From positions 128,001 through 192,000 of the forward strand of contig OZ271854.1 in assembly GCA_965601925.1 (NCBI GenBank): DNA of 64,000 nt. The letters run 5' to 3'. This document shows positions 23,044-38,439 of the stretch, one piece after another. Positions within the stretch are counted from its first letter, which is position 1. Each line of letters begins with the position of its first letter. Position numbers and translations under genes: made by a program. Under the pieces are notes generated by a model that was not told the origin of the DNA, made no database searches, and was given only the letters and a program-made list of their open reading frames with translations. Origin of the DNA: Alkalispirochaeta sp. (GTDB taxonomy: Bacteria > Spirochaetota > Spirochaetia > DSM-27196 > Alkalispirochaetaceae).

Positions 23044-23138
23044 TACGACTCCTTTCGGTGTCGATGGTACGAAGGGGTGTCGCGGTGCGTCTTGGACAAA
23101 CGCGACACGACGATCGGTCGAACAGCGGTATGAGCGGT

Positions 23139-23770: not shown

Positions 23771-24365
23771 GAATATGAGTATTTCGAACCGGAAGTATTA
23801 CCGTCAAATACCGAAGGAGCCGCGGCAGCATGTCTCGTCGGATATGACGTTGTAGCTAAAACCGCGAGAAACGCATCTAAAAGCCAGCATGTGTGCCTCG
23901 GTCGAAATCAGATCGACCCACACAGCCGGGCGCAACGCAGGCCGTCCGGGAATCGTTCTTTAGCCGACTCACCTATGATCATGACCGTGAACATCCATTG
24001 TGTGGCGTTTTCCAAATGTCTGCTCGATTTTACGGCTATGATGTAACTCCATTCGTTTCCCACACTATCAATCTGAACCGACTTCGCTGATCGCAGTTGG
24101 AAGGAAAACGTGTCGGTCTGAACCTGTGCAAAGACGGTGACGGACGAAGCCGAGAAGACCGAGCCCGAAACGTAAGGGTCAAGTCTACCGCACCTCGGAG
24201 AACGGTATGTTGTTGATCTAATCAACTCTGGGCGCTCGTTGGGGCTCATCAATGAGCACACGATTCGCTGCTGATCATTCACGTACGTGAAGGAGTTGGC
24301 CGTCAGGAATCAGGTATTCCTTGACGCATGGAACAAAGACAGTGTTTCACTCTCCTGACATGCGA

Positions 24366-25026
24366 CTACGACTTCCATCTTCGCCAAGCTCCAACGGCTA
24401 TGTGAACTAGCTTCCGGGATAGGACGATAGCGCCTATGTTGTCGCGGATCAATCTGTTGTAGGCTTGCAGACCAGCGTGTCTCGTCGAGAATGTCCGTAT
24501 CATACTCAGAGTTGAAAAACCGTTTGAGAGTCGCGACGATCTACGCCCAGACCTCATCCCGACAGTACTCGATCGGATCGCGGCCCTCTAATCGTCGGTC
24601 CATCAACTCCGCCTCGAATGTCTTCTGCACCGACCTACTCCCACTGCCACTGTTCACCGCGAGGTGTCGGAGCATACTGACGTGCTGCACATCCTCGCAT
24701 GCGGCCAACCGCTCGGGATCGGCCCCGGTGTGCTTGAGTAGACGGAGATAAATCGAGAACAGTTGGGCGTGAATCTGGGGCATACGCTACTCGACATACT
24801 GCAGCGGCTTGTAGGGCGAGTTCCCGGGCTACTCCACGTTACCGTTGACGACGATGGATCTCCCTTGCCGACGGCAGTACTGCCTCCGCGACGCGCAAAT
24901 GCATAGAGTAGCACCACAACGTCTACCGAGCCCCGGCCGGCCACTACCCACCATTTGAGTGTCGGCATCGATACTATCCTCATATGGTCCTCGATCTAAC
25001 CGATGCGTCTTCGCACTGTCATTCAT
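24366..25026 (-). pseudogene. Degraded gene of unknown family
   Basis: One frame broken by TAG at 24829, 24787 and 24541, plus an apparent frameshift near 24480. Confidence 0.5.
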
Positions 25027-25047
25027 AACCGGAGGAAAGAGTCCACG

Positions 25048-26943
25048 TCATGAAAGAATAATGCTTCGTATCGTTGTGCTCCCACCCGCGCTCGTAACCC
25101 TCATGTTCGACCCATCCGAGTACAGGAATGTGCTGTAGCTACCACTTGGTGGGACAACAGCGTAGTCTCGCCAAACGCTATCTGAGCCTCGGATTTCGAG
25201 CTTACCGGTTGTCCCAGCAGCGGTCGTCAGCTCGAGAAAAAGGTACGCCGGTCCCGGTAGTGTGCGGGGGGTACCCAATCCAGCAGTTGTTGCGCTGGCA
25301 TTCCTCGAACCCGCCGTTGTCGGGACAACCGTTCTGAACTGCACATCGTCAGTTCTCCTCACCGCCTGATCCATCGGATGCAGTTCATTTTCACCCTGCC
25401 CCGTATTGACCGACGGCGCCCATATAGGATTAGAGAAGGTCTTTGACCCGTTGATCGTCTGGTTACCGCTCGTCTTGACGCTTGTTGCGTCGACGTCGTC
25501 GACGTATTGTTTCCGCGCGGCTTCGTTGCCGGCTGTCGGATTGGCGTCTGGCAAGACCGGGATACTCGCGAATGTCTTGCGTCCTCCTACCGTCTGATCA
25601 CTCACAAGATCGACCGTATTGGCGTCTACCTCCGCCCTACTGTACACATCGAGCGTTGTCCGGGCGGTTGCGGCGTCCGCGGCCGCGCCGAGATCTCTGG
25701 TGTACGGCGTGGTGATGCTGTGGAGTTTCATGGCACCGGCAAAGCGATAGATGGTGAGATCATTATCGCCGTCACTCAGGATCACATCGGTGTCGTTGAG
25801 TGCCCCTATGTACGTCTGTATTAAACTGGGAAGTGCCAATCCCGAACCAATCTGTACAAAGTCGCTTCCATCAAACCCGTACGTCCGAAGCTCATGGTTA
25901 TCCGCGTCGACGTAGGCAATCCGATCGGGACCTCCAAGCGGAGCCAGCCCATAGACCTGTGCAAAGCCCCACGGATGGTTCGCAACACTTAAGGGAAGGC
26001 CGTTACCTACCTGCTCCCATGTAGATCCGTTGAATTGTAGCCGCTTGAGGATCGATTCTGTGCCGTGAATCAGCGTAACCTGATTCAGGATGTGTCCGGT
26101 GACCGCGGGCCAGAATCCATCTGTGAATGTAATTGCACTACCTACCGGTGCCCAATCGGCTCCGTCGAAGTGATACGCCTGCATGTGCGGGCTTTGAGCC
26201 TCATAGAGAACAATGTCGTTTTCTCCAATTGTGGCGATGTTAACGAAGGACGACGACCCTATGGACCATAGCCAATTGCCGATTAGTGACCAATTTGTTC
26301 CGTCGAAACGGAACCGCCGAAGTTGAGGAGAGTGTGTGCTCGCTATGGCGATATCCGTAGCATTCAGGCGGGTGATCGAGAAAAGAGCCGCACCGATGAT
26401 AGCGAGACCGTTTCCCACCTGCGCCCAGGACGATCCGTCGTATCTGTATGTCCTCAACTCACCGGTAAGCTCTTGATACATTGCTATATCGGTGTGGTTC
26501 AGCGCCGTGAAACCGAAACCGCCCCGACTATCGCCGGGAAGCGGCCATGGTGTGCCGACCCGAGACCAAGCGATGCCGGTGCTCACCGCCGAAAGCGATG
26601 CACCGGGCACAAGCGTCGCAGACACACCGGCGGTACCGCTTACGGTAACGTCAGATGTTGCAGAATCGTTGCTCACAATCACGTAGCCACCCGGAGTGGT
26701 AAGCGCACCGTTCAAAGTGAGGGAAAGTGGAGCGTCTCCGGTAACCGTTATCAGCATGGACGAACTATACGCACTCAAGTCTACGATCTGATCCGAGAGA
26801 ACATCGATCCGATGTGGTATTATGCGTTCGAGTTTGATTTTCTTGTCACGATCGGTCCCGGCACCGCGGATGAGATACAGTATGTCGTCTAAGTGCGGAT
26901 CATTTACCTCCGAGAAGTCCAGTATTGTCTTATTACTCATCAT
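25048..26943 (-). CDS. Tail fibre / receptor-binding protein with inserted beta-propeller
   Basis: Last gene after the baseplate; fibre motifs AATARTTLDVYS, DQTVGGRKTF/NQTINGSKTF, EAARKQYVD; repeats of the form LRxYxFDGxxWxxVG. Confidence 0.8.
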   Translation of the reverse strand: MMSNKTILDFSEVNDPHLDDILYLIRGAGTDRDKKIKLERIIPHRIDVLSDQIVDLSAYSSSMLITVTGDAPLSLTLNGALTTPGGYVIVSNDSATSDVTVSGTAGVSATLVPGASLSAVSTGIAWSRVGTPWPLPGDSRGGFGFTALNHTDIAMYQELTGELRTYRYDGSSWAQVGNGLAIIGAALFSITRLNATDIAIASTHSPQLRRFRFDGTNWSLIGNWLWSIGSSSFVNIATIGENDIVLYEAQSPHMQAYHFDGADWAPVGSAITFTDGFWPAVTGHILNQVTLIHGTESILKRLQFNGSTWEQVGNGLPLSVANHPWGFAQVYGLAPLGGPDRIAYVDADNHELRTYGFDGSDFVQIGSGLALPSLIQTYIGALNDTDVILSDGDNDLTIYRFAGAMKLHSITTPYTRDLGAAADAATARTTLDVYSRAEVDANTVDLVSDQTVGGRKTFASIPVLPDANPTAGNEAARKQYVDDVDATSVKTSGNQTINGSKTFSNPIWAPSVNTGQGENELHPMDQAVRRTDDVQFRTVVPTTAGSRNASATTAGLGTPRTLPGPAYLFLELTTAAGTTGKLEIRGSDSVWRDYAVVPPSGSYSTFLYSDGSNMRVTSAGGSTTIRSIILS

Positions 26944-26950
26944 GCTCTCC

Positions 26951-27493
26951 TTAGTTGCCGGTTCTACTCACCACGCCGATCGGGTTACCCAGGGCGTCGG
27001 TTAGAGTATTTCCTTCCCCATCCTGTAGATACCCGTACAACAACCCCAACACCCCCGCAGGACTGATGGCCTGTAGCTGCTCCTCTGTAACATCGGCGTC
27101 TGTGCGTACGTTGTACTGCGCCGGCGTGTGATTCCACTCCGGCGTGTACTCCACATAGGTCGCCCCGAAGAGCGCCTTTAGAATGCCGATAATCGCCTCC
27201 GGCTCGGCGGAGAAGGTCTGGGCACCCCTCGCCTTCAACCCTTGGCGGTACTCCTCGTCGGTCCTTCCACCGCGCTCCTCGCGCAGAATCCGGCCGATGG
27301 TATCGAGCTGCGCCCCTTCGGCGGTATCGATCCGGAAGCGATCGCGTATCTCAAAGAGCGCCTCCTCCAAATCCTCGGCCTGCGTGTTCGCCGCCCGCAC
27401 GACTCCCTGCAGGCGCGGTGACTCTTTGTACTGGTCCAGAATCAGATTGAGCGTGACCGCATCGTAGTCTGTAATCCGTGAAATCCTCGACAT
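26951..27493 (-). CDS. Baseplate wedge protein (DUF2612-like)
   Basis: QYKESPRL; IDTAEGAQLDTIGRIL..R..DEEYR; follows baseplate J. Confidence 0.8.
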   Translation of the reverse strand: MSRISRITDYDAVTLNLILDQYKESPRLQGVVRAANTQAEDLEEALFEIRDRFRIDTAEGAQLDTIGRILREERGGRTDEEYRQGLKARGAQTFSAEPEAIIGILKALFGATYVEYTPEWNHTPAQYNVRTDADVTEEQLQAISPAGVLGLLYGYLQDGEGNTLTDALGNPIGVVSRTGN

Positions 27494-27514
27494 CGCTCCT
27501 CCTTCACACGGCTC

Positions 27515-28966
27515 TTACGGCTGTGTGAGCGCCTCCACGGCGACTCGGTCCGCGGCAAAGGCGGCGAACTCCCGCTCCAGAATCGAGACGTTCTCCGCGC
27601 TGAAAACGGGAGGATCTTCGGGGTTGTCGGTAACGCCGATTCCGATCTCTACGCCTCCCACACCGGAGACCGAATAGATTGGTATCAAGAGACGCTGACG
27701 AATCACATCGACACCGATACTCTGGTTCTCTTCGGCCCATGCGACGATCGCGCTCCGAATCGATTGGTCGCCGTTTGCCGGGTACTGCTCCTCAATATAG
27801 AGCTCTCGGCGCACCCTTACGTGGATAAAGCGCGCCGTGGGTCGGCTGAAGGCGATCTCTTGCGCCCGCCCCTCCGAATCGGTGACGACAACCGATGTAT
27901 TGCCGAAGGGTTGGATACCGGCAGGCATCGTCTGCCAGATGACCTGCCCGATATCCTCATCGGTACCGCCAACAGCAACCACCTCGAAGCTCTTAGGCGG
28001 CCTGCCCTCGGTGTCGAGCTCCAAGGTGCGGTTACTCCGTACCGAGACTTGTTGAATACCCTCGACGCGGTTAAGGAGTCCGGACCTAATCGCCTCCTCG
28101 GTGGCGTTACCGGCGATCAGCGATTGATCGCGCCGGATGCGGAGCTCCTCATCGGTCTCGGCGTTGCGCCCCGTGACGCCCGCTGCCGGGTTTACGGCCT
28201 CGTCCAACCCCGTCACCGGGGTAACAACCGTGGTGAGAGTTGCAGGGGGAACGGGATACGGACCGGCATCCACCGCGGTAAATCCGGCGGCCGATGCTAG
28301 GAGCGTGAAAGAGAGCGTCGCCGACGCGCTCACCGAAAAGTCGACGGTGACGTGGCGCAGAGAAAGGCGATCCTCCCTGTTGACCGCCGTTCCACCCCAC
28401 TCCCCGACGGCGATCGCGGCGACCAGGGCGTTTACAACCTCACGCTTTCCGTCGCCGGCAACCGCGACGTAGGTGTAGTCCACGCCGTCGACGGCAACGG
28501 TGTAGCTCTCGCCGCCTCCGCTCGACGGCTCATCCACATCCAACTCGACGTCTCGCGCCGCGGCGAGAGAGATCGCCGTCGCCGCGTCGATACGGAAGTC
28601 CGTCGGCCCGTTGGGCTGGCGGAGCCGCAGTGTTGAGGGAACAGCTGCACCGTCCTCCCCGTACAAAAGCACATCGGAGACCACCGTACGTCCGGCGCCG
28701 ATGCGGCTGACGCCCGTCTCGGCGGCGATATTGTCCAGGGATACGCCGGTGGCTTGGCTGGGGTCGCGGGAGGTGTAGATCTCCTGTGCCGCGTCCCACA
28801 ACTGCGCCTCGCGCCGTGAGAGGAGCCCCACCAACTGGCCGAAAGGCCCTTCCGCATCCAGATCGATATCCTCGCCGAATACACCCTGGAACGCCGTCTC
28901 CAGCTCGCTTTTGATCTCCGCCAACGTCTTACGCTGAAACCCTGTGGCGGTAACGTAGCGCCCCAT
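27515..28966 (-). CDS. Baseplate J/gp47-family protein
   Basis: ATGVSLDNIA; GRNAETDEELRIR; PPKSFEVVAVGG; IAFSRP. Confidence 0.9.
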   Translation of the reverse strand: MGRYVTATGFQRKTLAEIKSELETAFQGVFGEDIDLDAEGPFGQLVGLLSRREAQLWDAAQEIYTSRDPSQATGVSLDNIAAETGVSRIGAGRTVVSDVLLYGEDGAAVPSTLRLRQPNGPTDFRIDAATAISLAAARDVELDVDEPSSGGGESYTVAVDGVDYTYVAVAGDGKREVVNALVAAIAVGEWGGTAVNREDRLSLRHVTVDFSVSASATLSFTLLASAAGFTAVDAGPYPVPPATLTTVVTPVTGLDEAVNPAAGVTGRNAETDEELRIRRDQSLIAGNATEEAIRSGLLNRVEGIQQVSVRSNRTLELDTEGRPPKSFEVVAVGGTDEDIGQVIWQTMPAGIQPFGNTSVVVTDSEGRAQEIAFSRPTARFIHVRVRRELYIEEQYPANGDQSIRSAIVAWAEENQSIGVDVIRQRLLIPIYSVSGVGGVEIGIGVTDNPEDPPVFSAENVSILEREFAAFAADRVAVEALTQP

Positions 28967-29331
28967 TAGATACTCACCTCCCCCTCGACGATCTCGCCAC
29001 CCTCGGCACGCACGGTGAAGGTCACGGTATACTCGCGCAGCGCCCCGTCGTAGGTAGTGCGAAATGTCACCACCTCGGCGACGCCCTCGATCCCCGATAC
29101 GGCGGAAAGAAGCAGTGCATTAACCTCGTTCAGGTCCGCCTTGCCGAGGATCGACTGAAAGTACGGCACGCCACCGGAGCGCGCCAAAAACCACTCACCG
29201 CGATACCACCGGAGTCGCGCCTCGATCTTCTGCGAGAGATACTCGCCCGTATCGGCGGTTAAGCGCAGGTTGTACCGCTCGTCGATCGCCAAGTCCCGCG
29301 TCGCGGGATCCACGTAGAGTTGCGTTCGCAT
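28966..29331 (-). CDS. Baseplate sheath-initiator (gp25/GP46-like)
   Basis: QKIEARLRWYRGEWFL..GVPY motif; position before baseplate J. Confidence 0.8.
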   Translation of the reverse strand: MRTQLYVDPATRDLAIDERYNLRLTADTGEYLSQKIEARLRWYRGEWFLARSGGVPYFQSILGKADLNEVNALLLSAVSGIEGVAEVVTFRTTYDGALREYTVTFTVRAEGGEIVEGEVSI

Positions 29332-29335
29332 ATGC

Positions 29336-30295
29336 CTACCCCGCCGTTACCTTCGTCTGACCGGCGCGCTGAACGAACACCGTGACCGAGAGCGTGCAGC
29401 TGCTGCCGCTTCCCGTTACTCCGGCAATGCCGCCGACGGTCACCTCGTCGCCCTCCCGTATCGGGAGTTTGCCGCCGCTTACGACCTTAGCCGCAGTCGC
29501 CGGGAGGGTCGCATTCGTCGGTGAGGAGGCGACGCACGCTCCGTCGGTGATCCCGGCGGGTATGGTGATCGCCGCGCCGTCCATGTACACACCGCGGCCG
29601 TCCGCCATAAGCGCGGCCGACGGCGCACCGGTAAAGACGGCGGGCGTTCCCGTTACCGGAGCGCGGTAGGCGAGTATTGCCGATGAGGTGGCGATCGCCT
29701 TGGCGTCGGCTCCCGGTCCGCCGGGGGAACCGCCCCCATCGCCGGCGGCCTCGAGAGCACTCCGATACGCGTCAAACACGTTTTGGAACGCCGTCCACTC
29801 ACCGCCGTTGTCTATCATCCACCGCGGACAATCCTTGCCGGTGCAATCGTGGTGGCGGAGTACGCGCTCCCGCTCCGTTATCCCGTTGCGATACAGGATG
29901 TCGGCCGCCAACTCGGCACCGGCGCGGAGCGTCGCCGGATAAAACTCGCCGGTAACGGTGGGATGACACATCTCAACTCCGATCGTGCGCCAGTTAGGCA
30001 GCCCCCCGAGAAGCGTCTCGATCTCGGGAAATGTCTCGTCCGAAGGTCCGGCGTGCCACGCCGTCTCATCCTCGGGAATCATGCGAATGATCTCGCCGTC
30101 TAGCCCCACCACGTAGTGTGCCGACTTGACGCTATCGGGCTCAGTTTGCGGCAATGTGTTGAAGTAGTCTCTAAGCTCCTGCGCATCGGTCCCGGGCCAC
30201 TCGGTCCAATGGACAACCACCCCCCGTAATGCAGGCAGCGCTTGCCCGGAGCGCGTATTGGGATGCACGGTAATCAGATCATCCCGAATCTTCAT
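29336..30295 (-). CDS. N-acetylmuramoyl-L-alanine amidase (Amidase_2) fused to a putative PAAR-like spike-tip domain
   Basis: VVVHWT, SAHYVV, AWHAG, IGVEMC, RHHDCTGKDCP; Gly/Pro linker; C-terminal ...KVVSGGKLPIREGD...AGQTKVTAG; AAGGAG before ATG 30295. Confidence 0.8.
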   Translation of the reverse strand: MKIRDDLITVHPNTRSGQALPALRGVVVHWTEWPGTDAQELRDYFNTLPQTEPDSVKSAHYVVGLDGEIIRMIPEDETAWHAGPSDETFPEIETLLGGLPNWRTIGVEMCHPTVTGEFYPATLRAGAELAADILYRNGITERERVLRHHDCTGKDCPRWMIDNGGEWTAFQNVFDAYRSALEAAGDGGGSPGGPGADAKAIATSSAILAYRAPVTGTPAVFTGAPSAALMADGRGVYMDGAAITIPAGITDGACVASSPTNATLPATAAKVVSGGKLPIREGDEVTVGGIAGVTGSGSSCTLSVTVFVQRAGQTKVTAG

Positions 30296-30347
30296 CGAAC
30301 CGCTCCTTCGCCGGAAGCCGCGGATGCAGTCTCGCAACGCGTCACGG

Positions 30348-30902
30348 TCATTGCAGCACCTCCAAGTTGCCTCCGTTGATCACGACCTTGTTGGAGGTCA
30401 TCTCCATGGTATTGCCGTTGGCGTCCGCAAGAACGATGTCGCCGCTCGCGGTAATCTCGATCGCGGCGCCGTTGTAACGCACGTAGAGCGAGTCCTCGGC
30501 CGGCGGCGGCTCGGGAGCCGAGCGAAAGCTCCACAGTCCCGGTATGCAGATCGCGTCGGTCAGCGCGTGACGGTGACTCGTCTCAGGCTCCACGGCGTCG
30601 GTGCCCTCGAGAAAGGAGCCCAGCGCCGCCTCCGAGAAAATGAGTAAACACCCATCGCCGCGCTGCAGCGGAAAGATGAGCTCCGCCGTACCGCTGGACG
30701 GGAAGACGACCGGCACGTTATCGATCGGTGGTATCTCGATCGCCCCGCCGAATCGTCGCCGCAGGCTCACCAGCGGCTTCACCCGCGCCTTACGCTCGCG
30801 GTGGCCCTCGTAGCTCTCGATGCGGCCGGGGAGCGCGGTATGTACATCCTCGAGGCTCGATAGGACAAAGCTGTTGAGTATCGCCACCGTATCGTCGCTC
30901 AC
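30348..30902 (-). CDS. Central spike (Gp138-like)
   Basis: HTALPGRI; VPVVFP; FPLQRGDGCLLIFSE; RHALTDAICIPG. Confidence 0.85.
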   Translation of the reverse strand: MSDDTVAILNSFVLSSLEDVHTALPGRIESYEGHRERKARVKPLVSLRRRFGGAIEIPPIDNVPVVFPSSGTAELIFPLQRGDGCLLIFSEAALGSFLEGTDAVEPETSHRHALTDAICIPGLWSFRSAPEPPPAEDSLYVRYNGAAIEITASGDIVLADANGNTMEMTSNKVVINGGNLEVLQ

Positions 30903-31726
30903 GCCGCCGCCTCCCCCTCCGCGATAAAGCGCTCTCCGTAGTTGCTTCCGAGAAACGCGATCCTCTCTACGAGAAACGTGCCCCGGACGCGATCGGTCCG
31001 AACCGTGATGAGACCGTTGGGCTGAAGCTTCGGTATGAGGACGGAGCGGAACCGCACTCGCCGCCGTGCGTCCTCCACCTCGGTAATATCCTCGACCGAT
31101 AGCAACCCCGAGTCGTAGTCCAAGAGGGTCGATCCGAACTGTCCGGACTGCCGGTCGCCGTCGCGATAGATCACGATCTCGCCGTTGTCGATGTAGAGCC
31201 CGCCGCCGTTGTTGGCCAGTATCTCTTCGGCGTAGCTCAACGCCCGCCGAGCACCCCCGGCAAAGACGAATCCGTTGGATAGCGCGATGCGCGCCTGGGC
31301 CTCGCCGAAAACGGCCAGCCCCAAGGCGGTCGCAACATCGCGAATCACCGTGGCAAGCTCGGTTCCGGGGGCGTAAGAGAGAGAGACGTTGGTTCGCGAC
31401 AGCGCCGTATCCCGACCCCGGAGCGCCGCCGCATGTATCGTTGTACGCCAGTCCCGGTCGCGCTTCTCCGACTGCGCATCGACGATCGATCCGATAAAGA
31501 GCGTACCCATCCCCTCGTCCTCGTACCCGGCACGAAAGATAAGGTTGCTGCCGATCCGCAAAACCTCTTTCCGGGTCTCCTCCGACGCGTTGTACACGGT
31601 AAACTCGGCGCGCTGTTGGGAGACGGCGATCGAGCGCTCCACCCGGAAATCGACGTGCAGACCCGACATATCCAGACCGCTGCCGTCGGCACCCACGGTC
31701 AGTTCGACCACTCTATTCCAGGCCAC
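30899..31726 (-). CDS. Baseplate hub protein
   Basis: AEFTVYNAS; FRAGYEDE..LFIGSI; position before the spike gene. Confidence 0.75.
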   Translation of the reverse strand: MAWNRVVELTVGADGSGLDMSGLHVDFRVERSIAVSQQRAEFTVYNASEETRKEVLRIGSNLIFRAGYEDEGMGTLFIGSIVDAQSEKRDRDWRTTIHAAALRGRDTALSRTNVSLSYAPGTELATVIRDVATALGLAVFGEAQARIALSNGFVFAGGARRALSYAEEILANNGGGLYIDNGEIVIYRDGDRQSGQFGSTLLDYDSGLLSVEDITEVEDARRRVRFRSVLIPKLQPNGLITVRTDRVRGTFLVERIAFLGSNYGERFIAEGEAAA

Positions 31727-32066
31727 GGACGTCCTCCCATGTATCGTATTCCTCCGAGGTCAAATAGAAGAGATCCCATCCGTTACCCAAATCGTCGTAC
31801 TCGACGCGCCCCCCCAGACTGTCGTCGCTCCGTATCACCATGAAGTCCCCGGGGAGGTCCGGCAGCGTCTCCTTTTTGTACCGCAGAACGGGATAGCCCG
31901 GAACGAGTTTGACGCCGTCGACGCGTCCCCCTTCGGTCTCGACGGAGAGGTGAAAAAAACCGGATCGAGTGTTGTAAACAAGACGCAACGAGGTGCGCAC
32001 GCCGTCCAGATCGATCGTCTGTCTGGTGTCCGCCGATACGCGTTGAAACGTTGGAATCTTTATCAC
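31713..32066 (-). CDS. Small baseplate/tail protein
   Basis: QTIDLDG..LRLVYNTR..DDLGNGWDLFY, typical of this slot in myophage tails. Confidence 0.65.
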   Translation of the reverse strand: MIKIPTFQRVSADTRQTIDLDGVRTSLRLVYNTRSGFFHLSVETEGGRVDGVKLVPGYPVLRYKKETLPDLPGDFMVIRSDDSLGGRVEYDDLGNGWDLFYLTSEEYDTWEDVRGLE

Positions 32067-32644
32067 TACCGCGCCCCCGCTAAATTGCGATCGATCCGCT
32101 CTTGCTGCGCCGGGGATATCGGTTCGGCGGTCGTCTGTCCCACATCGGCCGGGGGAGCGGCCTGACGGCTCACATCATCGCCCATACTCTCGACATCGAT
32201 CGCAACGTCGAGGTTGGCCCGTTTGAGGCTCACCCGCCGTATCGCTTGAAAACTGACATTGAGGGAGATCGCCTCCCCGGTATCGGCGGATCGCTCTACG
32301 CCGACCGACCGGATCGCCACGTCCTCGTACACCCGCATGACCGTCACGATGGTGACCAGCTCTCGACTGCGCCAGAGTCGTTCGATCTCGTTGAAAGCGT
32401 CCTGGGCGCGATTGCTCGTAAGCGCGTCGGTCTTGAGCGAGAAGTTGGAGATGAGGGCGGTGAGCGACCCGGACAGGAGCTCGTTCTCGATGTGGTCGGC
32501 GACGGCGCTCCCGTCCTCGACCGGATGGGAGGTAATACGATTGTTGAAGGTGTGCTCCTCCTTCAGTACCAGATCGAAGGAGAGCGATCCGATACGATAG
32601 TTCCGATTTCCCTGGAAAAAGAGTACTGCCGGTAGTTCAGCCAT
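32066..32644 (-). CDS. Dit-like / tube-initiator baseplate protein
   Basis: FDLVLKEEH..ITSHPVEDGSAVADH motif; follows the tape measure gene. Confidence 0.8.
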   Translation of the reverse strand: MAELPAVLFFQGNRNYRIGSLSFDLVLKEEHTFNNRITSHPVEDGSAVADHIENELLSGSLTALISNFSLKTDALTSNRAQDAFNEIERLWRSRELVTIVTVMRVYEDVAIRSVGVERSADTGEAISLNVSFQAIRRVSLKRANLDVAIDVESMGDDVSRQAAPPADVGQTTAEPISPAQQERIDRNLAGAR

Positions 32645-32646
32645 TC

Positions 32647-34038
32647 CTAAAACTCCGCATCGATAAACAGCTGACGAAGCTCCGCAGCGAACCGTGAGCG
32701 AACCTCGTCGCCCACGCGCTCGGCCACCGCCTCGCCGATCTCATCCGGTTCTCCCTCGACGCCGCTAACGTTCACCGAAATCGGCATGTCGATATGTACA
32801 TCTCCCGCTGCGCCGCGTACGCTCGGAACCATACGATCCAATATCTCCTCGGAGGTCGTGCCGGAACCGGCCAAAAGGGCCGGATCGAACAGCTGTCCCA
32901 CGGCCGGCAACGCCTCAGGGAGCGCCGGTGCCTCGCGAATCGCCGCACCGGTAACGCCGCGCCCCAGGGTGAGCTCCTCCTGCAATCGTAACTCGGTACG
33001 CCCTAAGAAGGCGGCAACGCGATCGACGAGCCGCCCGATAAAGCCGAACGCCTCACGCAGGGGTTGCAGGACCGGCTCGATAAAACGCGTGACATTCTCC
33101 ATGAGGGTCTGCACGAGGCCGCCCGCACGCTCTGCGATCACCCGAATGCCGAGCACGATCACCCGTGTCACCGCTTGGAACATCTCCGCCACTGCATACA
33201 CGATGCCGAAGACCCGCTCCAAATCGGGAATAAAGAGGGTTCGCAGCGCCTCCACGAGCTCTCCGACTATGGCTATCACACCACCCAGAATTGAGGCCGG
33301 CAGGCGCAGAAGCGCCACTGCGCGGCGAATGGGTGCGAGTATCGCCTCGAATAGCGTTCCGAGTCCCTGGACCAAGGGAGGAAGGACGTCGGTGAGCACG
33401 CGCACCGCGTCCTCCAGAATGTCGTTGATCCCGGAGCGCTCGATGAAGCGTATCTGCGCCACCTCCATACGCGATCCGAACTCGGCAACGGCACCTCCCA
33501 GGCCCTCGAAATCGACGCGTGTAGCGGCGGCCTCCTCGGCGACGGCCTGCAATCGCAGGGGCATCTCCGCGATGATCTCGTTGACGCTCAACCCCTCGTC
33601 GGCGAGGCTCACTTGGACCGCCGCGACCTCAGCGGTGGAAAGCACGCTCGTCTCGGCGGCCGAAAGCGTCGCCTCATTTAGCCGCTCCATCTCCTCCGCT
33701 GAGGCTCCCGTGGCGCGTCGGACGCTCTGCATCGCCTCCTCGAAACGTATGAAGGTCTCGGTCGCTGTGGCGATCCCTTGAATCGCCAGAACCGTCGCCT
33801 CTACCGCGAGAGCGACCGGCGAGATCGAAGCGGCGACGGAGTCGAGTCCCGGGACAATCTCCCCGAGCTGTTTGAGCGGCTCGGCAACCGCCTCGGTTTG
33901 AGCGCTGAATCTTTCATTGAACCCTCTCAATGAGGAGTCGACTGCGGACAGACCTCGGCCCACCTCGTTGGCGATGCCGTCCAGAGAGGACGCATCGAAC
34001 TGAACGCCGACCTTGTCCGCCAGCTCGCCAATCGTCAC
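32647..34038 (-). CDS. Tape measure protein (short, 463 aa)
   Basis: Helical and Ala/Leu-rich; partial TP901-type segment FEEAMQSVRRATGASAEEMERL; position after the chaperone. Confidence 0.8.
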   Translation of the reverse strand: MTIGELADKVGVQFDASSLDGIANEVGRGLSAVDSSLRGFNERFSAQTEAVAEPLKQLGEIVPGLDSVAASISPVALAVEATVLAIQGIATATETFIRFEEAMQSVRRATGASAEEMERLNEATLSAAETSVLSTAEVAAVQVSLADEGLSVNEIIAEMPLRLQAVAEEAAATRVDFEGLGGAVAEFGSRMEVAQIRFIERSGINDILEDAVRVLTDVLPPLVQGLGTLFEAILAPIRRAVALLRLPASILGGVIAIVGELVEALRTLFIPDLERVFGIVYAVAEMFQAVTRVIVLGIRVIAERAGGLVQTLMENVTRFIEPVLQPLREAFGFIGRLVDRVAAFLGRTELRLQEELTLGRGVTGAAIREAPALPEALPAVGQLFDPALLAGSGTTSEEILDRMVPSVRGAAGDVHIDMPISVNVSGVEGEPDEIGEAVAERVGDEVRSRFAAELRQLFIDAEF

Positions 34039-34346
34039 GTCGCGCCTCGCGCCTCGCGGTGCGTCGCTTCACGTCCCCGCTCGGCCGCCTCAATATCGTC
34101 TTGCATGTCCAACAGCGCGTTTACTCGCAAGATCTCCTCAAGACTCCACGTGTCGAGGTCGCGCAGGCTTAGCCTCATCTTCACCACGAGCCTCCAATAC
34201 GGCCACTCCGACTCTATGCGCCTCGAGACGTTGCCGACGTTGCCGAGCCGTTCGCTCCGTCGTCGCGACTCGTCTCGTCCGCGGCGGAGGTACGGATTGT
34301 GCTCGTTAGGTTGCCAATCCCGAGCTTCTCGGCGAGGGCGAAAGGG
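34035..34346 (-). CDS. gpT-like -1 frameshift extension of the tail assembly chaperone
   Basis: Open -1 frame from slippery C CCT TTC (34346-34340) to TGA 34037-34035; ...SEWPYWRLVVKMRLSLRDLDTWSLEEILRVNALLDMQDD... Confidence 0.75.
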   Translation of the reverse strand, partial: PFRPRREARDWQPNEHNPYLRRGRDESRRRSERLGNVGNVSRRIESEWPYWRLVVKMRLSLRDLDTWSLEEILRVNALLDMQDDIEAAERGREATHREARGAT

Positions 34347-34717
34347 CTGAAGTGGTTCCTCTTCATGACCTCGAAGGCGAGCGTGTACAGATCGACGATC
34401 GGTACGCCCTGGAGCGCGCTATCGAAGGTATCGTCGTCGATCTGCTCCGGAGCCCGTCCGGGACGCGAGACCTGAACGCACCCGAACAACTCGGTCAACA
34501 CCGCAACAAACTGATCGGAGGACAACGACCGTAGCGCCCGGGAGATACCGTCGAAGAGTACGCCGGCATCCAGGTTTCTCCAATCGCTCACACTCCCGCC
34601 GAGCCCGCCGGCCGCACTCATTACAAGCTCCATGATGGTCTTGTCGAGGCGCAACGCAACCCTCGGCTTCAATCGATGTATCACGTAGGTATTACCGCCG
34701 ATCGTTACTTTGTCCAC
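34214..34717 (-). CDS. Tail assembly chaperone (gpG-like)
   Basis: Lies between tube and tape measure; VTIGGNTY.. and LYTLAFEVMKRNHFSPF; GAGGAG RBS. Confidence 0.8.
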   Translation of the reverse strand: MDKVTIGGNTYVIHRLKPRVALRLDKTIMELVMSAAGGLGGSVSDWRNLDAGVLFDGISRALRSLSSDQFVAVLTELFGCVQVSRPGRAPEQIDDDTFDSALQGVPIVDLYTLAFEVMKRNHFSPFALAEKLGIGNLTSTIRTSAADETSRDDGANGSATSATSRGA

Positions 34718-34744
34718 CGCACGCTCCTCTCTTCGCCGCCGATT

Positions 34745-35185
34745 CTAGAGAATGTTTCCACCACTCACCTTAACGCTGGCACCGGTGTCGAACCGCCACT
34801 GCCGACTGCTCATGGAGTCGCTGAACTCGTCGTCCGGATCCTTGCCGATCCACGATTGCGGCGCGGTAAAGAGCGACAGCCCGTTGAGATCCTTTATCAG
34901 CAACGGAAACTTTCCCGTATTGGTAAGACGATCCTGCTCGAGGATACCGGAGAGGGCGTCGTTGGTAATGCTTGTCTGTTTGAGCGTAAGAGTCACCGAG
35001 AAGTCTCCCGCGTTCAGATTCACCCGATCGATGCCGCCGTCGGCGCCGCGAACCTTCTCAAACAGGTCGCCGTTGCGGGCAATCTGCACAAAGGTGCCCG
35101 AGGCGTAGCCGGTCACGATCACCGGACCGAAGGTAACGACGATCTGTTTGGGGTCGTAGGTGCGAACTATCGGATCTGCTGGCAT
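34745..35185 (-). CDS. Tail tube protein (DUF3277-like)
   Basis: RTYDPKQIVVTFG; GADG; TLTLKQTSITN; follows the sheath gene. Confidence 0.85.
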   Translation of the reverse strand: MPADPIVRTYDPKQIVVTFGPVIVTGYASGTFVQIARNGDLFEKVRGADGGIDRVNLNAGDFSVTLTLKQTSITNDALSGILEQDRLTNTGKFPLLIKDLNGLSLFTAPQSWIGKDPDDEFSDSMSSRQWRFDTGASVKVSGGNIL

Positions 35186-35201
35186 TAATCTCTCCTTCTA
35201 C

Positions 35202-36530
35202 CTATACCGTTACGGTTCCGGCGATCTTGACTTTGTGAATCGCCCCTTGCAGGTCGGCCTCGAAGGTCACGTCCGGCAGGCTGCGATTGGCTTTGTCGGT
35301 CTGCGAAACGTCGGCAGCCCTGGGCACCGACACCGCGACGGACTCGCCGACGAGCAGTTGACGCCGCGCCGCCTCGTCGAGGACGCCGCGTACCAACCCT
35401 TCGATGAGCGCGATTCCCGCGTCGGTAAAAGGGATCTTGTCGTTATTGATCAGGGATCCGAAGACCTCTTCCTGGAGTCTCGACTCCAACCAGTCGATGC
35501 CGCGAATAATGTCTACATACTCGCCGGAGGCGACGGTGCCGAACTGGGTCACCGGCACCCCCGCTACCTCGGTGTAGGTGTTGGCACGCTTGTCGAGCAC
35601 CTCGGTGCGCTGGGTTGTGGTAAGCTCGTAGGCCGCGACCCCCGCGATCGTCTTGTGGGCCCACGTCGCCGAACCGGGATTCTTCGGAAGCATCACCCCG
35701 TTAATGCCCGCGGTGGGATACTGCGCAGCCTCGGGATGGTACCACACCGAGGCGCGATCGAGATTCTGCGTCGTAGCCCATGCGGCGATATCGTTGGTGT
35801 CGGAAGTCGGCGGGTAATAGTAGGTCACCGCGCCGGTAGGTTGGCTCGCCCCACCGGTGACGGCTGCCTCGACGGTCACCACAGGACCGGTGGTCGCGAC
35901 GATAATCGTTCTGTTGTTACCGTCCACCGGATCGACGATCGCGGCAAACCCGGCGTTACGAATGGCCGTCGCAACCGCACCGAGAGTCGTTGCCTGATCG
36001 GCGGCGAATGGTACCGGGTCGACAGCCGTTACGGTACCGTTTACCGTAAGGCTCACCGCAATCTCGTTACTCGCGACAAAGTCGGCGCTGAACACGATCC
36101 GGGCGATATCGACGGCATCAATGAAGCAGATCTTCTTCTGCGTCGAGGCCCAATTCGCGGCGCTTTGTTGGTGTTCCGGTGCGAGGCTATCGATCACGAA
36201 GGTGTACCAGTTGTCGGTGGCAAGTTGGATCGCGCTCAGTGCGTCGGCCCACGTCGCGTCCGTTGCATCCTTACGCCCGACCATGACACGCGTCGGTCTC
36301 GGATTTTGTGAGAACACCTTCTGCGCGATCTTGTACACGCCGTCTCCGGCGCCCCACCCGTCGTCCGCCATCTCCTGGATGCCCGAGTAATAGCGGTGTC
36401 GCGGAAAGGATACGACCGTCTTACCCGGATCAAACTCACCTACGACGGCGAAGACGCCGAAGGACGCGCGCGCGACCGCTTGCGTCTGCCTTGTAATGTC
36501 GACCTGCACGATCTCGTTGAGTGCGCTCAT
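35202..36530 (-). CDS. Contractile tail sheath (DUF3383-like)
   Basis: IVQVDI; FSQNPRP; PGSATWAHKTIAGV; GEYVDIIRGIDWL; KIPFTDAG; GAIHKV. Confidence 0.88.
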   Translation of the reverse strand: MSALNEIVQVDITRQTQAVARASFGVFAVVGEFDPGKTVVSFPRHRYYSGIQEMADDGWGAGDGVYKIAQKVFSQNPRPTRVMVGRKDATDATWADALSAIQLATDNWYTFVIDSLAPEHQQSAANWASTQKKICFIDAVDIARIVFSADFVASNEIAVSLTVNGTVTAVDPVPFAADQATTLGAVATAIRNAGFAAIVDPVDGNNRTIIVATTGPVVTVEAAVTGGASQPTGAVTYYYPPTSDTNDIAAWATTQNLDRASVWYHPEAAQYPTAGINGVMLPKNPGSATWAHKTIAGVAAYELTTTQRTEVLDKRANTYTEVAGVPVTQFGTVASGEYVDIIRGIDWLESRLQEEVFGSLINNDKIPFTDAGIALIEGLVRGVLDEAARRQLLVGESVAVSVPRAADVSQTDKANRSLPDVTFEADLQGAIHKVKIAGTVTV

Positions 36531-37054
36531 ATCGCCTTACCTCCTATAGTCCCCTGGTATTGGACCGTTTCGATGTAACCCGGCCGGTAGGTGGTGACAC
36601 TTACCAGTCCGATACGGATTTTCACTGAATGTCTGTAGCGCCACTGTCCGCCGATCTGTCCCGAAGTCTCCGCGATTTCCGACTCCTCGCCGCGGTACGC
36701 CAGATTGGCCGCGGCGAAGCGATCCCTGATATCCTGCCGGTCCTGACTCTCGATCAGACGCCGCAACCGGTCGCCAAAGCCGTTGACCTCCGCAAGACTC
36801 CAGGTATCTTCATAGTCGTTGACGATCGTCTGATTGCCGAGTGCATCGACCGCGCCGACTTGTCCTCTACCCATGCGGACACGGGCCGGACGTGCATCGA
36901 TTATCACGTAGGGCCCCGTGGGGTCCGGCACCGATGGAACGGCCCCCTCTTGAGAGACGACGATGGAAATGCTTTCGCCTCCATCGATGTTGAGGACGAA
37001 ATCGATCCAACCGTGGATCTCCTGTCGCACCTCTTCGACCGTCGTTGCGCCCAT
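36527..37054 (-). CDS. Putative neck/tail terminator (cap) protein
   Basis: Overlaps the sheath start; P.PTGPYVII motif; size and position. Confidence 0.6.
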   Translation of the reverse strand: MGATTVEEVRQEIHGWIDFVLNIDGGESISIVVSQEGAVPSVPDPTGPYVIIDARPARVRMGRGQVGAVDALGNQTIVNDYEDTWSLAEVNGFGDRLRRLIESQDRQDIRDRFAAANLAYRGEESEIAETSGQIGGQWRYRHSVKIRIGLVSVTTYRPGYIETVQYQGTIGGKAI

Positions 37055-37084
37055 CAACTCGTTATCTCGTCACCTTCGCGTTCA

Positions 37085-37366
37085 TCACGACGTGCGCCGA
37101 GAGACGGTTCGCTTGCGACCCTTTTTTTGAGAGGTGGAGACGCTCCCGGAAGCACCCGGTCGCGAGCCTAACTCTTCGCCGTGCTCACGCTCCACCACGA
37201 TTACTCCGCGCCGCACCAGATCGCGTAGTCCCGTCCGGACGGCGCCCCAGTCGACGGCGGAAACCTCGTTGAGTCCCGGAAGCAGAGTGATATCCCGCAT
37301 GTGGACACCGTTATCGGCGACGACAGGGAATTTCTCTACGCTGTCTCGCGTCCACCGTATGATCAT
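37085..37366 (-). CDS. Small phage-like protein, first gene of the tail operon
   Basis: GAGGA RBS; ITLLPGLNEV..DW motif; basic C-terminal tail. Confidence 0.6.
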   Translation of the reverse strand: MIIRWTRDSVEKFPVVADNGVHMRDITLLPGLNEVSAVDWGAVRTGLRDLVRRGVIVVEREHGEELGSRPGASGSVSTSQKKGRKRTVSRRTS

Positions 37367-37523
37367 ACGTCGTCCTCAGTTAAAATTGATTTATTTAAAG
37401 GCTATTTATTATATAATGCTAGCATAGTTATCTTACATAGTACTGCTGCATTATGGCAATAAAAATCTACCTATTCATTCCTGAGGAAAAGTATGCGGTA
37501 AGTGTGATATAGATAATCTTCGA
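37367..37523 (-). promoter_or_regulatory. AT-rich leader / promoter region of the tail operon
   Basis: Sharply AT-rich; TATAAT on - strand (37413-37408); palindromes ATTATATAAT 37408-37417 and ATGCTAGCAT 37416-37425. Confidence 0.6.
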
Positions 37524-38399
37524 TTACTCTAAAAACTTTGGCCAATCTTCCTTCAGCAAGCGCGAGAGCGCTCGGTCGGCAAGGAGCTTGCCGCCGGTCT
37601 GGCAGGTGGCACAGTAGTTCGTCTCGTTCTCGGCGTAGCGGATACGTTGCACCGCCGAACCGCATCGCGGGCACGGCCGGCCGTACTTGCCGTGCACGGC
37701 CAGTTCGTCACGGAAGGCGGTAACTTTATCGGGAAACCCGTCTCCAACCTCAGCGGCGATCGTCTCGTACATACGCGCCAATACGGCGCGTGTCGCCTCG
37801 AAGAGGCGCTCCATCTCGCCGTCGGTCATCTTGCCGGTCTGCAAAAAGGGCGACAATCGCGCCTCATGTAGGATCTCGTCGGAGCAGGTGTTACCGACGC
37901 CGCTGATGATGCGGGGGTCGGTGAGGGAACGTTTGATCGTATGATTCTCCCGTCGGAACGCGGCGGCGAACTGCGCTCCGTCCGCCTCGAACACCTCAAT
38001 CCCGCCGGGGTTGTGTCCGGCGAGCCCGTCCTCTCCTCTCACAAGGTGGATCGAGGCTCGGCGCTTGGAGCCCGCCTCGGTAAAATGGAGCGCATCCTCA
38101 CCGAAGGAGAAGACCGCCAACGTCCGCCGACGGTCGACCTTCTTACTCGCTTTGTGCATCCGGAGTCGTCCGGCGATCATGAGGTGCACGACCACCCACA
38201 CGTCCTCGGGAAAGCCGAGGGCGATGCGCTTGCCGATGCGTCGAACGGCGAGGAGCTCGCGTCCCGCTACCGCGTCAATCGGAGGATCGACGGTCCGCAA
38301 CACGAAGGGATTGACGATATTCAGCGATTCCATAACGCGCGTGCGGAAGAGCGCATCGAGGCGTTCCACGTAGACACGCACGTCCGGGTATTCGGGCAT
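37524..38399 (-). CDS. Fpg/Nei-family DNA glycosylase
   Basis: MPEYPDV N-terminus; H2TH GVGNTCSDEIL; zinc finger CPRC..CATC. Confidence 0.9.
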   Translation of the reverse strand: MPEYPDVRVYVERLDALFRTRVMESLNIVNPFVLRTVDPPIDAVAGRELLAVRRIGKRIALGFPEDVWVVVHLMIAGRLRMHKASKKVDRRRTLAVFSFGEDALHFTEAGSKRRASIHLVRGEDGLAGHNPGGIEVFEADGAQFAAAFRRENHTIKRSLTDPRIISGVGNTCSDEILHEARLSPFLQTGKMTDGEMERLFEATRAVLARMYETIAAEVGDGFPDKVTAFRDELAVHGKYGRPCPRCGSAVQRIRYAENETNYCATCQTGGKLLADRALSRLLKEDWPKFLE

Positions 38400-38439
38400 G
38401 TGTTCAATGTAGCGGGCGGTCGCCGCGTCGGCTACTCGA

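What the first reader, a model, noticed from the sequence alone, without database searches (positions are those of the whole stretch)
25048..37523. Intact headless contractile-tail operon: candidate new tailocin / contractile injection system in a probable spirochaete
Seen in sequence: 15 co-oriented, mostly abutting or overlapping ORFs with no visible disruption. The order is small protein, terminator, sheath, tube, chaperone, tape measure, Dit-like, small baseplate, hub, spike, amidase-tip, gp25-like, baseplate J, wedge, fibre. It is bounded upstream by a ~155-nt AT-rich leader and then fpg/parC, and downstream by gene debris and vapBC. There is no capsid, portal, terminase, integrase, repressor, replication or holin gene. 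Established: R-type tailocins and eCIS are head-less myophage tails. The parts here resemble DUF3383 sheath, DUF3277 tube, Gp138 spike and DUF2612 wedge rather than P2-like R-pyocins or Afp/PVC eCIS, and no AAA+ ATPase is present. Inference: this is a domesticated nanomachine rather than a decaying prophage, because only non-tail functions are missing, the operon has its own promoter and its composition looks host-like by eye.
Basis: partly seen in the sequence, partly recalled or inferred. Interest (0 to 1): 0.92.

Follow-up and report, generated by a model that had tools for sequence, protein, structure and literature searches.

The report
Spirochaete headless tail with enzyme tip
An uncultured spirochaete and a sister lineage keep a complete, head-less phage-tail syringe at the same chromosomal spot, with a swapped targeting fibre and a cell-wall-cutting enzyme fused to the needle tip, so it is most likely a host-owned weapon against other bacteria rather than a decaying virus.

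Summary
Observation confirmed. The 15 intact ORFs (plus a missed -1 frameshift chaperone extension) form a full DUF3383/Gp138-type contractile tail. The single-contig 5.05 Mb genome holds no cognate portal, capsid, adaptor or neck gene; its one head module belongs to an unrelated siphoprophage. Against related phages, the head was lost on both sides of ORF1.

An independent sequencing run holds a sister lineage with the same fpg-ORF1-terminator junction. Its tail core is 90-92% identical, against 86.5% for the adjoining leader-fpg-parC piece, and its fibre region is replaced. Simulated neutral decay at that distance always gave premature stops. The cassette is not found in 98 other genomes of the order.

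ORF11 is an intact zinc amidase fused in front of a PAAR-fold spike tip. The fusion was found only here and in one relative.

Best reading: an independently domesticated R-type tailocin-like particle, with a peptidoglycan-cutting tip, released by an orphan lysis cassette elsewhere in the genome. Expression, particles, killing and promoter use are untested. A second headless (Mu-type) tail lies in the same genome, and separately derived headless DUF3383 tails occur elsewhere in the phylum.

The parts
37367..37523 (-). AT-rich leader (68.8% AT), with an extended -10-like TGCCATAAT at 37458-37450, TATAAT at 37413-37408, and a 10-mer shared with the orphan lysis cassette leader at 37439-37430
   Evidence: promoter activity not shown
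37085..37366 (-). ORF1, 93 aa: N-terminal half of the small protein that follows the major capsid gene in related phages; C-terminal domain lost
   Evidence: HMM of phage post-MCP proteins hits it at E 4e-4 genome-wide; alignments
36527..37057 (-). tail terminator / sheath cap
   Evidence: PF23961 E 1.6e-6; 47% identical to the L004 terminator
35202..36530 (-). contractile sheath (DUF3383)
   Evidence: PF11863, phrog_205 E 1.5e-79; solved relatives include Pam3 sheath 8hdr and phi92 gp130
34745..35185 (-). tail tube
   Evidence: PF11681 (below cut-off), phrog_280 E 2.9e-34; position after the sheath
34214..34717 (-). tail assembly chaperone
   Evidence: PF21822 E 5.3e-9
   Evidence: open -1 frame, visibly similar to the same frame in L004, L005, L008, L013, L025; same heptamer in L004; frameshifting inferred
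32647..34038 (-). tape measure protein, 463 aa, with a hydrophobic segment near aa 240
   Evidence: PHROG TMP hits, best E 3.7e-13; hydropathy
32066..32644 (-). Dit-like tube initiator
   Evidence: PF21821 E 1.1e-28
31713..32066 (-). baseplate plug (Pam3 gp18-like)
   Evidence: PF22479 E 4.3e-16
30899..31726 (-). baseplate hub (E217 gp41-like)
   Evidence: PF22759, phrog_196 E 2.8e-42
30348..30902 (-). central spike (phi92 gp138 / E217 gp43 family), short C-terminus
   Evidence: PF18352 E 1.4e-22; PDB profile hits 3pqi, 8eon_F, 7yfz_w
29336..30295 (-). amidase-PAAR fusion, 319 aa: Zn N-acetylmuramoyl-L-alanine amidase (about aa 3-170; H29, E108, H148, C156), Gly-rich linker, PAAR-fold spike tip (aa 197-319, window 29707-29339)
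   Evidence: PF01510 E 9.7e-25; XlyA alignment; residue positions; AF2 pLDDT 97.2; VIA Z 11.0, rmsd 2.1, 96 aligned to T4 gp5.4; complex model
28966..29331 (-). gp25-like sheath initiator / wedge subunit
   Evidence: phrog_120 E 6.4e-21
27515..28966 (-). baseplate J-like wedge
   Evidence: phrog_6 E 1.8e-47
26951..27493 (-). DUF2612 wedge subunit
   Evidence: PF11041 E 1.8e-10
25048..26943 (-). tail fibre / receptor-binding protein, about 630 aa, with five 44-53-aa repeats, GC3 0.59; this region is replaced in the sister lineage
   Evidence: PHROG fibre hits; repeats; GC3; replacement
37524..40392 (-). upstream host flank fpg and parC, co-oriented; same junction in the sister lineage
23139..25047 (-). 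downstream debris and vapBC; not part of the conserved cassette
   Evidence: the X5 contig joins 23107 to 27027 through 1890 other letters

Best explanation
This is a domesticated, R-type tailocin-like particle, derived from a myophage lineage with a DUF3383 sheath and Gp138 spike (Pam3/PAK_P1/E217-like tail parts) that has not been described as a tailocin source in the papers searched. SHOWN by sequence: the ancestor of this genome and its sister lineage lost everything from terminase to capsid, and also the three head-joining genes between ORF1 and the terminator. It kept every tail gene and the chaperone frameshift site. It joined a peptidoglycan amidase to the N-terminus of the PAAR tip. 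The fibre region has since been exchanged. INFERRED: the operon is switched on in some cells and builds capped tails, about 70 nm long by a recalled 0.15 nm per tape-measure residue. The cells lyse with the help of the orphan amidase/spanin-like cassette at C1:4,261,637-4,262,763 or of the resident siphoprophage. The fibre binds a surface glycan of related bacteria and the sheath contracts. The PAAR-tipped spike carries the amidase into the periplasm, where it cuts peptidoglycan so that the tube reaches and depolarises the inner membrane. The amidase may add lytic damage of its own.
For: Complete, intact tail. No cognate head: 113 upstream phage proteins by tblastn and 8 HMMs on a six-frame genome translation hit only the sheath, terminator and ORF1, plus one host gene matched by a non-head L007 protein. 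43 head-region proteins of four spirochaete prophages give no hit. Family searches are empty (controls rang for 11, 39 and 94 only). All 16 of the 28 related loci that reach a capsid gene have adaptor and neck genes before the terminator. Run X5 (second study) has the same junction. Differences there: 463/5928 (7.8%) and 421/4130 (10.2%) in the tail, with net length change 0 and +6, against 440/3263 (13.5%) over ORF1 5' end-leader-fpg-parC. The fibre region is replaced by 1890 other letters. Neutral simulation with 442 substitutions gives a mean of 7.6 premature stops, and 0 of 300 runs were free of them. Codon use is inside the host range: distance 0.117, 87th percentile of 390 host blocks, against 0.150-0.156 for the resident prophage. 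The PAAR fold is supported. A spike-trimer/PAAR model scores 0.84 against a best control of 0.00 (contacts agree 100%, partner pLDDT at least 94; this mark was reached by 116 of 157 solved and 2 of 215 mismatched pairs). It is a textbook-type pair, so the pass shows likeness to solved complexes only. The amidase-PAAR fusion is kept in relative P0238 at 63.6% identity, while 92 of the 95 other family representatives are stand-alone proteins of 140 aa or less. The orphan amidase is shared with relatives at 84-87%. A conserved core with a variable fibre is the tailocin pattern (PMC12090994 passages).
Against: There is no holin, stand-alone endolysin or regulator at the locus. No SOS-like box was found in the leader, and the promoter is unproven. 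Retention is patchy: 0 of 16 other genus genomes and 0 of 98 other order genomes carry it, though many are fragmented MAGs. Site conservation rests on one independent run, in two contigs with a 10-nt gap. Their letters could not be read, so dN/dS and the sister's reading frames are not shown. The closest sheath and tube relatives (P0001, P0080) lie on a 131,807-bp contig for which no fpg homologue appeared among the best 120 hits; that contig's context is unknown and it could be a phage. The target could be non-bacterial or the producer itself.
Confidence: 0.62

Rival explanations
1. Domesticated contractile machine with another job: cargo delivery to, or attachment on, a eukaryotic or other partner (eCIS-like), or intracellular action in the producer (programmed lysis or cell-wall remodelling), with the amidase acting on the producer's own wall.
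For: A PAAR tip and the lack of an adjacent lysis cassette are eCIS/T6SS traits and not pyocin traits in Sarris 2014 (passages). No immunity gene lies next to the amidase. All evidence for selection fits equally well.
Against: There is no AAA+ ATPase, DUF4255 or T4 gp19-type tube, and no effector ORF beyond the tail genes. The only enzyme is a peptidoglycan amidase. A replaced fibre region points to an external, variable receptor.
Confidence: 0.18
2. Defective prophage remnant that has not yet decayed and has no host function.
For: Narrow distribution. ORF1 is a truncated head-module relic. The sheath nests among phage sheaths, nearest to L004, which has a full head. Debris and vapBC lie downstream.
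Against: The same head-less junction is present in a lineage 8-13% diverged, with no net frame-breaking length change. Neutral decay predicts about 7.6 stops and none are seen. Codon use is host-like. There is no integrase, tRNA site or att-like repeat. The genome's real prophage has singleton proteins, while tail proteins have close relatives.
Confidence: 0.12
3. Tail half of a split gene transfer agent or satellite-like element that borrows a head from elsewhere, for example from the resident HK97-like prophage.
For: The genome holds one complete terminase-portal-protease-capsid module at C1:3,712,244-3,718,028. Split GTA loci exist in spirochaetes (VSH-1, recalled).
Against: That head belongs to an integrase-bearing siphoprophage with its own tail, and its capsid and small terminase are cluster singletons. 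The adaptor, neck and closure genes needed to join a head were lost, and no cognate copy exists in the genome.
Confidence: 0.05

Closest known systems
R-type tailocins (P. aeruginosa R-pyocins from P2; P. syringae R-syringacin from a Mu-like phage)
   Same: Head-less contractile tail at a fixed chromosomal site, with a conserved core and a variable fibre (PMC12090994, PMC4542187 passages). R-syringacin also lacks an identifiable holin, and lysis in trans was proposed for it.
   Different: Different phage ancestry (DUF3383 sheath, KPP10-type tube, Gp138 spike, Dit-like, Pam3 plug). Has a PAAR tip with an N-terminal amidase. No lysis or regulatory genes at the locus. Spirochaete host. No activity shown.
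Tail module of DUF3383/Gp138 myophages (Pseudomonas JG004/PAK_P1-like, E217, phi92, cyanophage Pam3; nearest unnamed contig L004)
   Same: Same gene order from terminator to fibre, same chaperone frameshift site, and a spike ending in NLEVLQ followed by the PAAR gene. Sheath 58%, tube 66%, terminator 47% identical to L004.
   Different: Head, packaging, adaptor, neck and closure genes are gone. The PAAR gene is stand-alone in the phages L005 and L008 and fused to an amidase here.
Afp/PVC/MAC-type eCIS (PLTS of Sarris 2014)
   Same: Head-less, PAAR-tipped, no adjacent lysis genes.
   Different: No AAA+ ATPase, DUF4255, T4 gp19 tubes or VgrG-type spike; no separate cargo genes.
T6SS 'evolved' PAAR effectors and the T4 gp5 spike lysozyme
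   Same: A wall-degrading or toxic enzyme covalently carried on the puncturing tip (T4 gp5 recalled and in the table).
   Different: Evolved PAARs are defined by C-terminal extensions (10.1101/2023.03.26.534264 passages). Here the enzyme is N-terminal, the genome has no TssC/VipB, and no immunity gene is evident.
Head-less tail region of Leptospira licerasiae / L. interrogans proposed as pyocin-like (Ricaldi 2012)
   Same: A spirochaete tail region without head genes, suggested to be a tail-type bacteriocin (passages).
   Different: I did not show that this region is DUF3383-type. The head-less DUF3383 loci that I found in family f28 form a separate sheath clade (support 100) from this one.

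Membership tests
R-type tailocin | Complete contractile tail (sheath, tube, tape measure, baseplate, spike, fibre) | tested here: met
R-type tailocin | No head, packaging or replication genes at the locus, and no cognate ones elsewhere | tested here: met
   genome is 1 contig, 96.7% complete
R-type tailocin | Fixed chromosomal site in related strains, conserved core, variable fibre | tested here: met
   one independent run (X5); fibre identity of the replacement is inferred from position and length
R-type tailocin | Purifying selection on tail genes | tested here: inconclusive
   Indirect only: stop-codon simulation, net indels 0 and +6; dN/dS could not be computed
R-type tailocin | Linked lysis cassette (holin, endolysin, spanin) | tested here: not met
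   None at the locus; an orphan amidase plus two spanin-like ORFs lies elsewhere
R-type tailocin | Linked SOS-responsive regulator | tested here: inconclusive
   No regulator at the locus; lexA and recA are in the genome; no box from five recalled patterns in the leader
R-type tailocin | Particles made and bactericidal | not testable with these tools
   needs culture, EM and killing assays
Afp/PVC-type eCIS (PLTS) | AAA+ ATPase in the cluster | tested here: not met
   Pfam scan of all 15 ORFs and flanks; feature
Afp/PVC-type eCIS (PLTS) | DUF4255 and T4 gp19-type tube genes | tested here: not met
Afp/PVC-type eCIS (PLTS) | PAAR tip | tested here: met
T6SS | TssB/TssC sheath and membrane complex | tested here: not met
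   PF05943 absent from the genome, control rang; membrane complex not searched genome-wide
Gene transfer agent | Cognate terminase, portal, capsid and head-tail connector somewhere in the genome | tested here: not met
Defective prophage | Pseudogenised, strain-specific, foreign composition, att or integrase relics | tested here: not met
   ORF1 truncation and narrow range are the only fitting traits

The most novel reading that the evidence does not exclude
An enzyme-armed tailocin that sits between classical tailocins and injection systems: a free contractile tail from a phage lineage not described before as a tailocin source, carrying a peptidoglycan amidase on the N-terminus of its PAAR tip as a built-in warhead. 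It would be co-regulated with an unlinked lysis cassette, which also serves a second, Mu-type head-less tail with a very short tape measure. It would be one of several independent captures of DUF3383 tails across the Spirochaetota.
Probability: 0.35. Interest if true: 0.88.

Novelty: new variant of a known kind. Interest (0 to 1): 0.76.

Why it matters
No characterised tailocin from a spirochaete turned up in the searches run; only a 2012 suggestion for Leptospira was found. No paper held DUF3383 together with tailocin, nor the tailocin/PAAR/amidase term sets. The library lacks most subscription papers. If confirmed, this adds a new phage ancestry for R-type tailocins and a natural example of an enzyme carried on the N-terminus of a PAAR tip in a free tail. 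It also gives a young domestication, present in sister lineages and absent from the rest of the genus, in which the deletion steps can still be read against near phage relatives. Finally, it points to many undescribed head-less DUF3383 tails elsewhere in the phylum.

Tried and rejected
No RNA holder was listed for the stretch; this says nothing about expression. The metagenome scan with baseplate J gave one distant 4.4-kb locus. The genome-contig scan gave two distant loci. The single-sequence fold of the fibre was unusable (pLDDT 35), and the Atlas gave only scores of 0.76, so the fibre fold is open. Foldseek on the PAAR model had no hit at E <= 0.001, although PAAR chains ranked first. ORF1 matched no Pfam or PHROG family. 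Its likeness to the small first ORF of the second tail locus was not significant (hhalign E 0.18). The SOS-box search found nothing. The 10-mer shared by the tail leader and the orphan lysis leader occurs only twice in the genome, but 89 of 4424 upstream regions (12 of 180 AT-rich ones, the leader itself included) share some 10-mer with this leader, so it is a weak hint. No att-like repeats or tRNA were found. The downstream debris matched nothing else in the genome. An fpg homologue was not seen on the 131,807-bp contig among the best 120 hits. The careful sheath tree did not finish, so quick trees were used. Family searches had silent controls and are not relied on alone. No look-alike earlier findings were found.
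Full report
1. Observation. All 15 ORFs are present, open and co-oriented on the minus strand between 37366 and 25048. Gaps are -14 to +52 nt, except 175 nt after the chaperone. Pfam and PHROG give a tail-type family to 13 of them, Amidase_2 to ORF11 and nothing to ORF1. The 175-nt gap holds a -1 frame that is open from the heptamer CCCTTTC (34346-34340) to 34035. It resembles the same frame in five related phage loci, and L004 has the same heptamer. The window lies in a single 5,053,413-bp contig, 96.7% complete. A contig of the source sample matches 21001-40243 with no difference. A parC 93.5% identical is named Spirochaetales bacterium by its source.

2. No cognate head in the genome. The 15 tail proteins have no second copy, apart from two other amidases, a partial fibre match and a weak chaperone match. 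113 proteins encoded upstream of the sheath in 10 related phage loci were run by tblastn, and 8 HMMs built from them were run on a six-frame translation. The only hits were the window's own sheath, terminator (E 6e-19) and ORF1 (E 4e-4), plus one host gene matched by a non-head L007 protein. Portal, protease/MuF, capsid, adaptor and neck HMMs found nothing. 43 head-region proteins of four spirochaete prophages also found nothing. Family searches for Terminase_6N, Terminase_6C and phrog_222 were empty with ringing controls. Those for PF06381, PF09950 and phrog_264 were empty with silent controls. The genome does hold one head module, in an integrase-bearing HK97-like prophage near C1:3.696-3.731 Mb that has its own non-contractile tail. 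Its capsid and small terminase are cluster singletons.

3. What was deleted. Of 28 related loci (L002-L029), 16 reach a capsid gene. All 16 have adaptor and neck genes between capsid and terminator, and 14 have the small post-capsid gene. The HMMs were trained on 10 of these loci, but the post-capsid, adaptor and neck hits in L004, the nearest phage, are independent of training. A neck gene is seen in 23 of the 28; four are cut off too early, and L020 has no hit in 1.5 kb. ORF1 is the N-terminal half of the post-capsid protein. So at least two losses occurred: everything up to the capsid gene, and the stretch from mid-ORF1 to the terminator, which held exactly the head-joining genes. In a quick tree of 55 sheaths the window pairs with P0001 (support 100) and then with L004/P0002/P0005 (92).

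4. Conservation in a sister lineage. Five runs hold the stretch: four of one sample (probably the source) and X5 of a second study; four were laid. In X5 one 14,960-bp contig covers 31166-37093 (463 differences in 5928, net length change 0) and then 37172-40434 (440 in 3263), with 91 letters in place of 78 in the tail of ORF1. The sister therefore has the same parC-fpg-leader-ORF1-terminator junction. A 6,679-bp contig of the same depth covers 27027-31156 (421 in 4130, net +6), then 1890 other letters, then the DUF1761 gene at 23107-22646. So the fibre region is replaced, and vapBC and the debris are absent. The two contigs are 10 nt apart, and I could not read their letters. Placing half of the 884 tail substitutions on the window's lineage at random, with the run's substitution spectrum, gave a mean of 7.6 premature stops; 0 of 300 runs had none. 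The window has none. Protein relatives of unknown context are as close as host genes: sheath 85.7%, tube 94.5-95.2%, Dit 87.5-90.1%, against parC 93.5% and fpg 87-89%. Codon distance of the tail core to the host is 0.117 (87th percentile of 390 host blocks; GC3 0.75 against 0.73). The prophage scores 0.150-0.156, above the 95th percentile, and the fibre has GC3 0.59. Against this: no sheath match in 60 relatives or 98 other order genomes, many of them fragmented. All 16 other genus genomes have parC, with no fpg or tail gene in the 1.5 kb flanks held, and only 1 of 16 has an fpg of this kind at E <= 1e-40. The capture is young and clade-restricted, and fpg may have arrived with it. The 131,807-bp contig that encodes P0001/P0080 has unknown context, and no fpg on it appeared among the best 120 hits.

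5. The tip. The C-terminal 123 aa of ORF11 are homologous to the small gene between spike and gp25 in phage L008. A search of the 50% representatives gave 96 hits: the window protein, 92 stand-alone proteins of 140 aa or less, and three long repetitive proteins matched in short stretches. A search among proteins of 183-583 aa found the amidase fusion only in the window protein and P0238 (324 aa; 64.4% amidase part, 62.6% tip part). AlphaFold2 with 91 sequences gave pLDDT 97.2. VIA-align ranked six PAAR-type chains first: T4 gp5.4 Z 11.0 (rmsd 2.1, 96 aligned), P1 tip Z 11.0, c1882 PAAR Z 10.4; the next unrelated chain scored Z 3.2. A model of three spike chains with this domain scored 0.84 against a best control of 0.00. 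Runs agreed in 100% of contacts and partner pLDDT was at least 94; the mark was reached by 116 of 157 solved and 2 of 215 mismatched pairs. The last spike residues meet three PAAR strands, and PAAR residue 2 is at the base, so an N-terminal domain would hang beside the spike. This is a textbook pair and the pass shows likeness only. The amidase aligns to B. subtilis XlyA and keeps H29, E108, H148 and C156; reading these as the zinc and catalytic residues rests on recalled knowledge of the family. It is about 56% identical to the endolysin of the resident prophage and to an orphan amidase, so it was probably taken from a spirochaete phage lysis gene.

6. Release and control. The locus has no holin, free endolysin or regulator. 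An orphan cassette at C1:4,261,637-4,262,763 encodes an amidase and two membrane-anchored, spanin-like ORFs, 82% identical over 606 nt to the prophage lysis region. Its amidase has relatives at 84-87%, one named Spirochaetales bacterium. Lysis in trans is therefore plausible, as proposed for R-syringacin (PMC4542187 passages). The leader is unusually AT-rich and has -10-like words. But the promoter scan is below chance and finds no terminator after fpg, so read-through from parC-fpg is also possible. The 10-mer shared with the orphan cassette leader is a weak hint only.

7. Mechanism. Shown: anatomy, absence of a cognate head, site conservation in one sister lineage, fibre-region replacement, PAAR fold, amidase fusion. 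Inferred: expression, assembly of capped tails, release by lysis in trans, fibre-guided binding, contraction, amidase-aided passage through peptidoglycan, killing by depolarisation. I put host-selected retention at about 0.8 and the antibacterial tailocin-like reading at 0.62. Another domesticated role gets 0.18, an undecayed remnant 0.12, and a GTA or helper-dependent element 0.05.

8. Comparison and novelty. It works most like an R-type tailocin. It fails the linked-lysis feature and has a different ancestry, so it is not filed with the P2- or Mu-derived families. It fails the ATPase, DUF4255 and gp19 features of Afp/PVC eCIS (PMC4122934 passages), and the genome has no VipB. Evolved T6SS PAARs are defined by C-terminal extensions (10.1101/2023.03.26.534264 passages). 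Ricaldi 2012 already proposed a head-less tail region of Leptospira as pyocin-like (PMC3493377 passages; PMC4243447 passages). A 2026 detector preprint says predictions in Spirochaetota are uncertain (10.64898/2026.08.24.746745, one passage). Searches returned no paper; others listed none on a characterised spirochaete tailocin (listings only, apart from the papers named). No supplements were read.

9. Wider picture. In a phylum sample, 33 of 400 other genomes have a DUF3383-type sheath, 26 of 75 in family f28 (probably Leptospiraceae; my inference). I read 8 of these loci over 22-34 kb. Four carry full heads (G310, G335, G137, G413). Four show terminator to fibres with no head gene (G465, G305, G314; G169 judged from gene order and the neck test). 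Among 29 sheath loci with 1.5-kb flanks, 5 had a neck gene; sensitivity is limited, since the terminator was detected in only 11. These sheaths form a clade apart from the window's (support 100, quick tree), which points to separate captures. The own genome also has a second head-less tail of Mu type at about C1:4.899-4.917 Mb, shared with relatives at 89-99%, with only a 147-aa ORF where the tape measure should be.

Verdict: a real feature and a new variant of a known kind; interest 0.76.

Noticed in passing
G000:C1:~4,899,000-4,917,277 (L032, L036): Second head-less contractile tail, Mu type: small ORF, terminator-like gene, sheath, tube, chaperone, a 147-aa ORF in place of a tape measure, gpN-like gene, two baseplate J/wedge/fibre sets, an FG-GAP repeat fibre, and an inverted fibre cassette. 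It has an AT-rich leader. Tube, gp46 and wedge are 89-99% identical to relatives' proteins; the sheath matched only 1 of 98 other order genomes, weakly.
   Followed up: partly
G000:C1:4,261,637-4,262,763 (L030:9638-10764): Orphan lysis cassette (amidase plus two spanin-like ORFs, no holin seen) beside fusA, related to the resident prophage's lysis genes and shared with relatives; candidate release module in trans.
   Followed up: partly
G000:C1:~3,695,600-3,731,000 (L031, L034, L035): Apparently complete HK97-like siphoprophage with integrase next to a tRNA-Thr gene; capsid and small terminase are cluster singletons.
   Followed up: partly
L099-L104, L113-L114 (G465, G169, G305, G314): Head-less DUF3383 tail loci with several tandem fibre genes in family f28 (26 of 75 genomes have the sheath); their sheath clade is separate from the window's and includes head-bearing prophages.
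   Followed up: partly
window 37524-38399: This fpg type is found in only 1 of 16 other genus genomes, at another site; its C-terminus is 7 aa shorter than in relatives P0098/P0099. It may have been acquired with the cassette.
   Followed up: partly
window 25048-26943: The fibre's N-terminal about 110 aa match the second tail locus at C1:4,903,348-4,903,689 (39%), suggesting exchange between the two systems; it has five 44-53-aa repeats, possibly propeller blades.
   Followed up: no
L004:430-1164 and other phage loci: The head decoration-like gene before the capsid gene shares a roughly 100-aa domain with the sheath insertion (45% to window sheath aa about 140-240).
   Followed up: no
window 23139-25047: vapBC and low-GC debris are absent from the sister lineage, so they are a later insertion beside the fibre gene.
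   Followed up: partly
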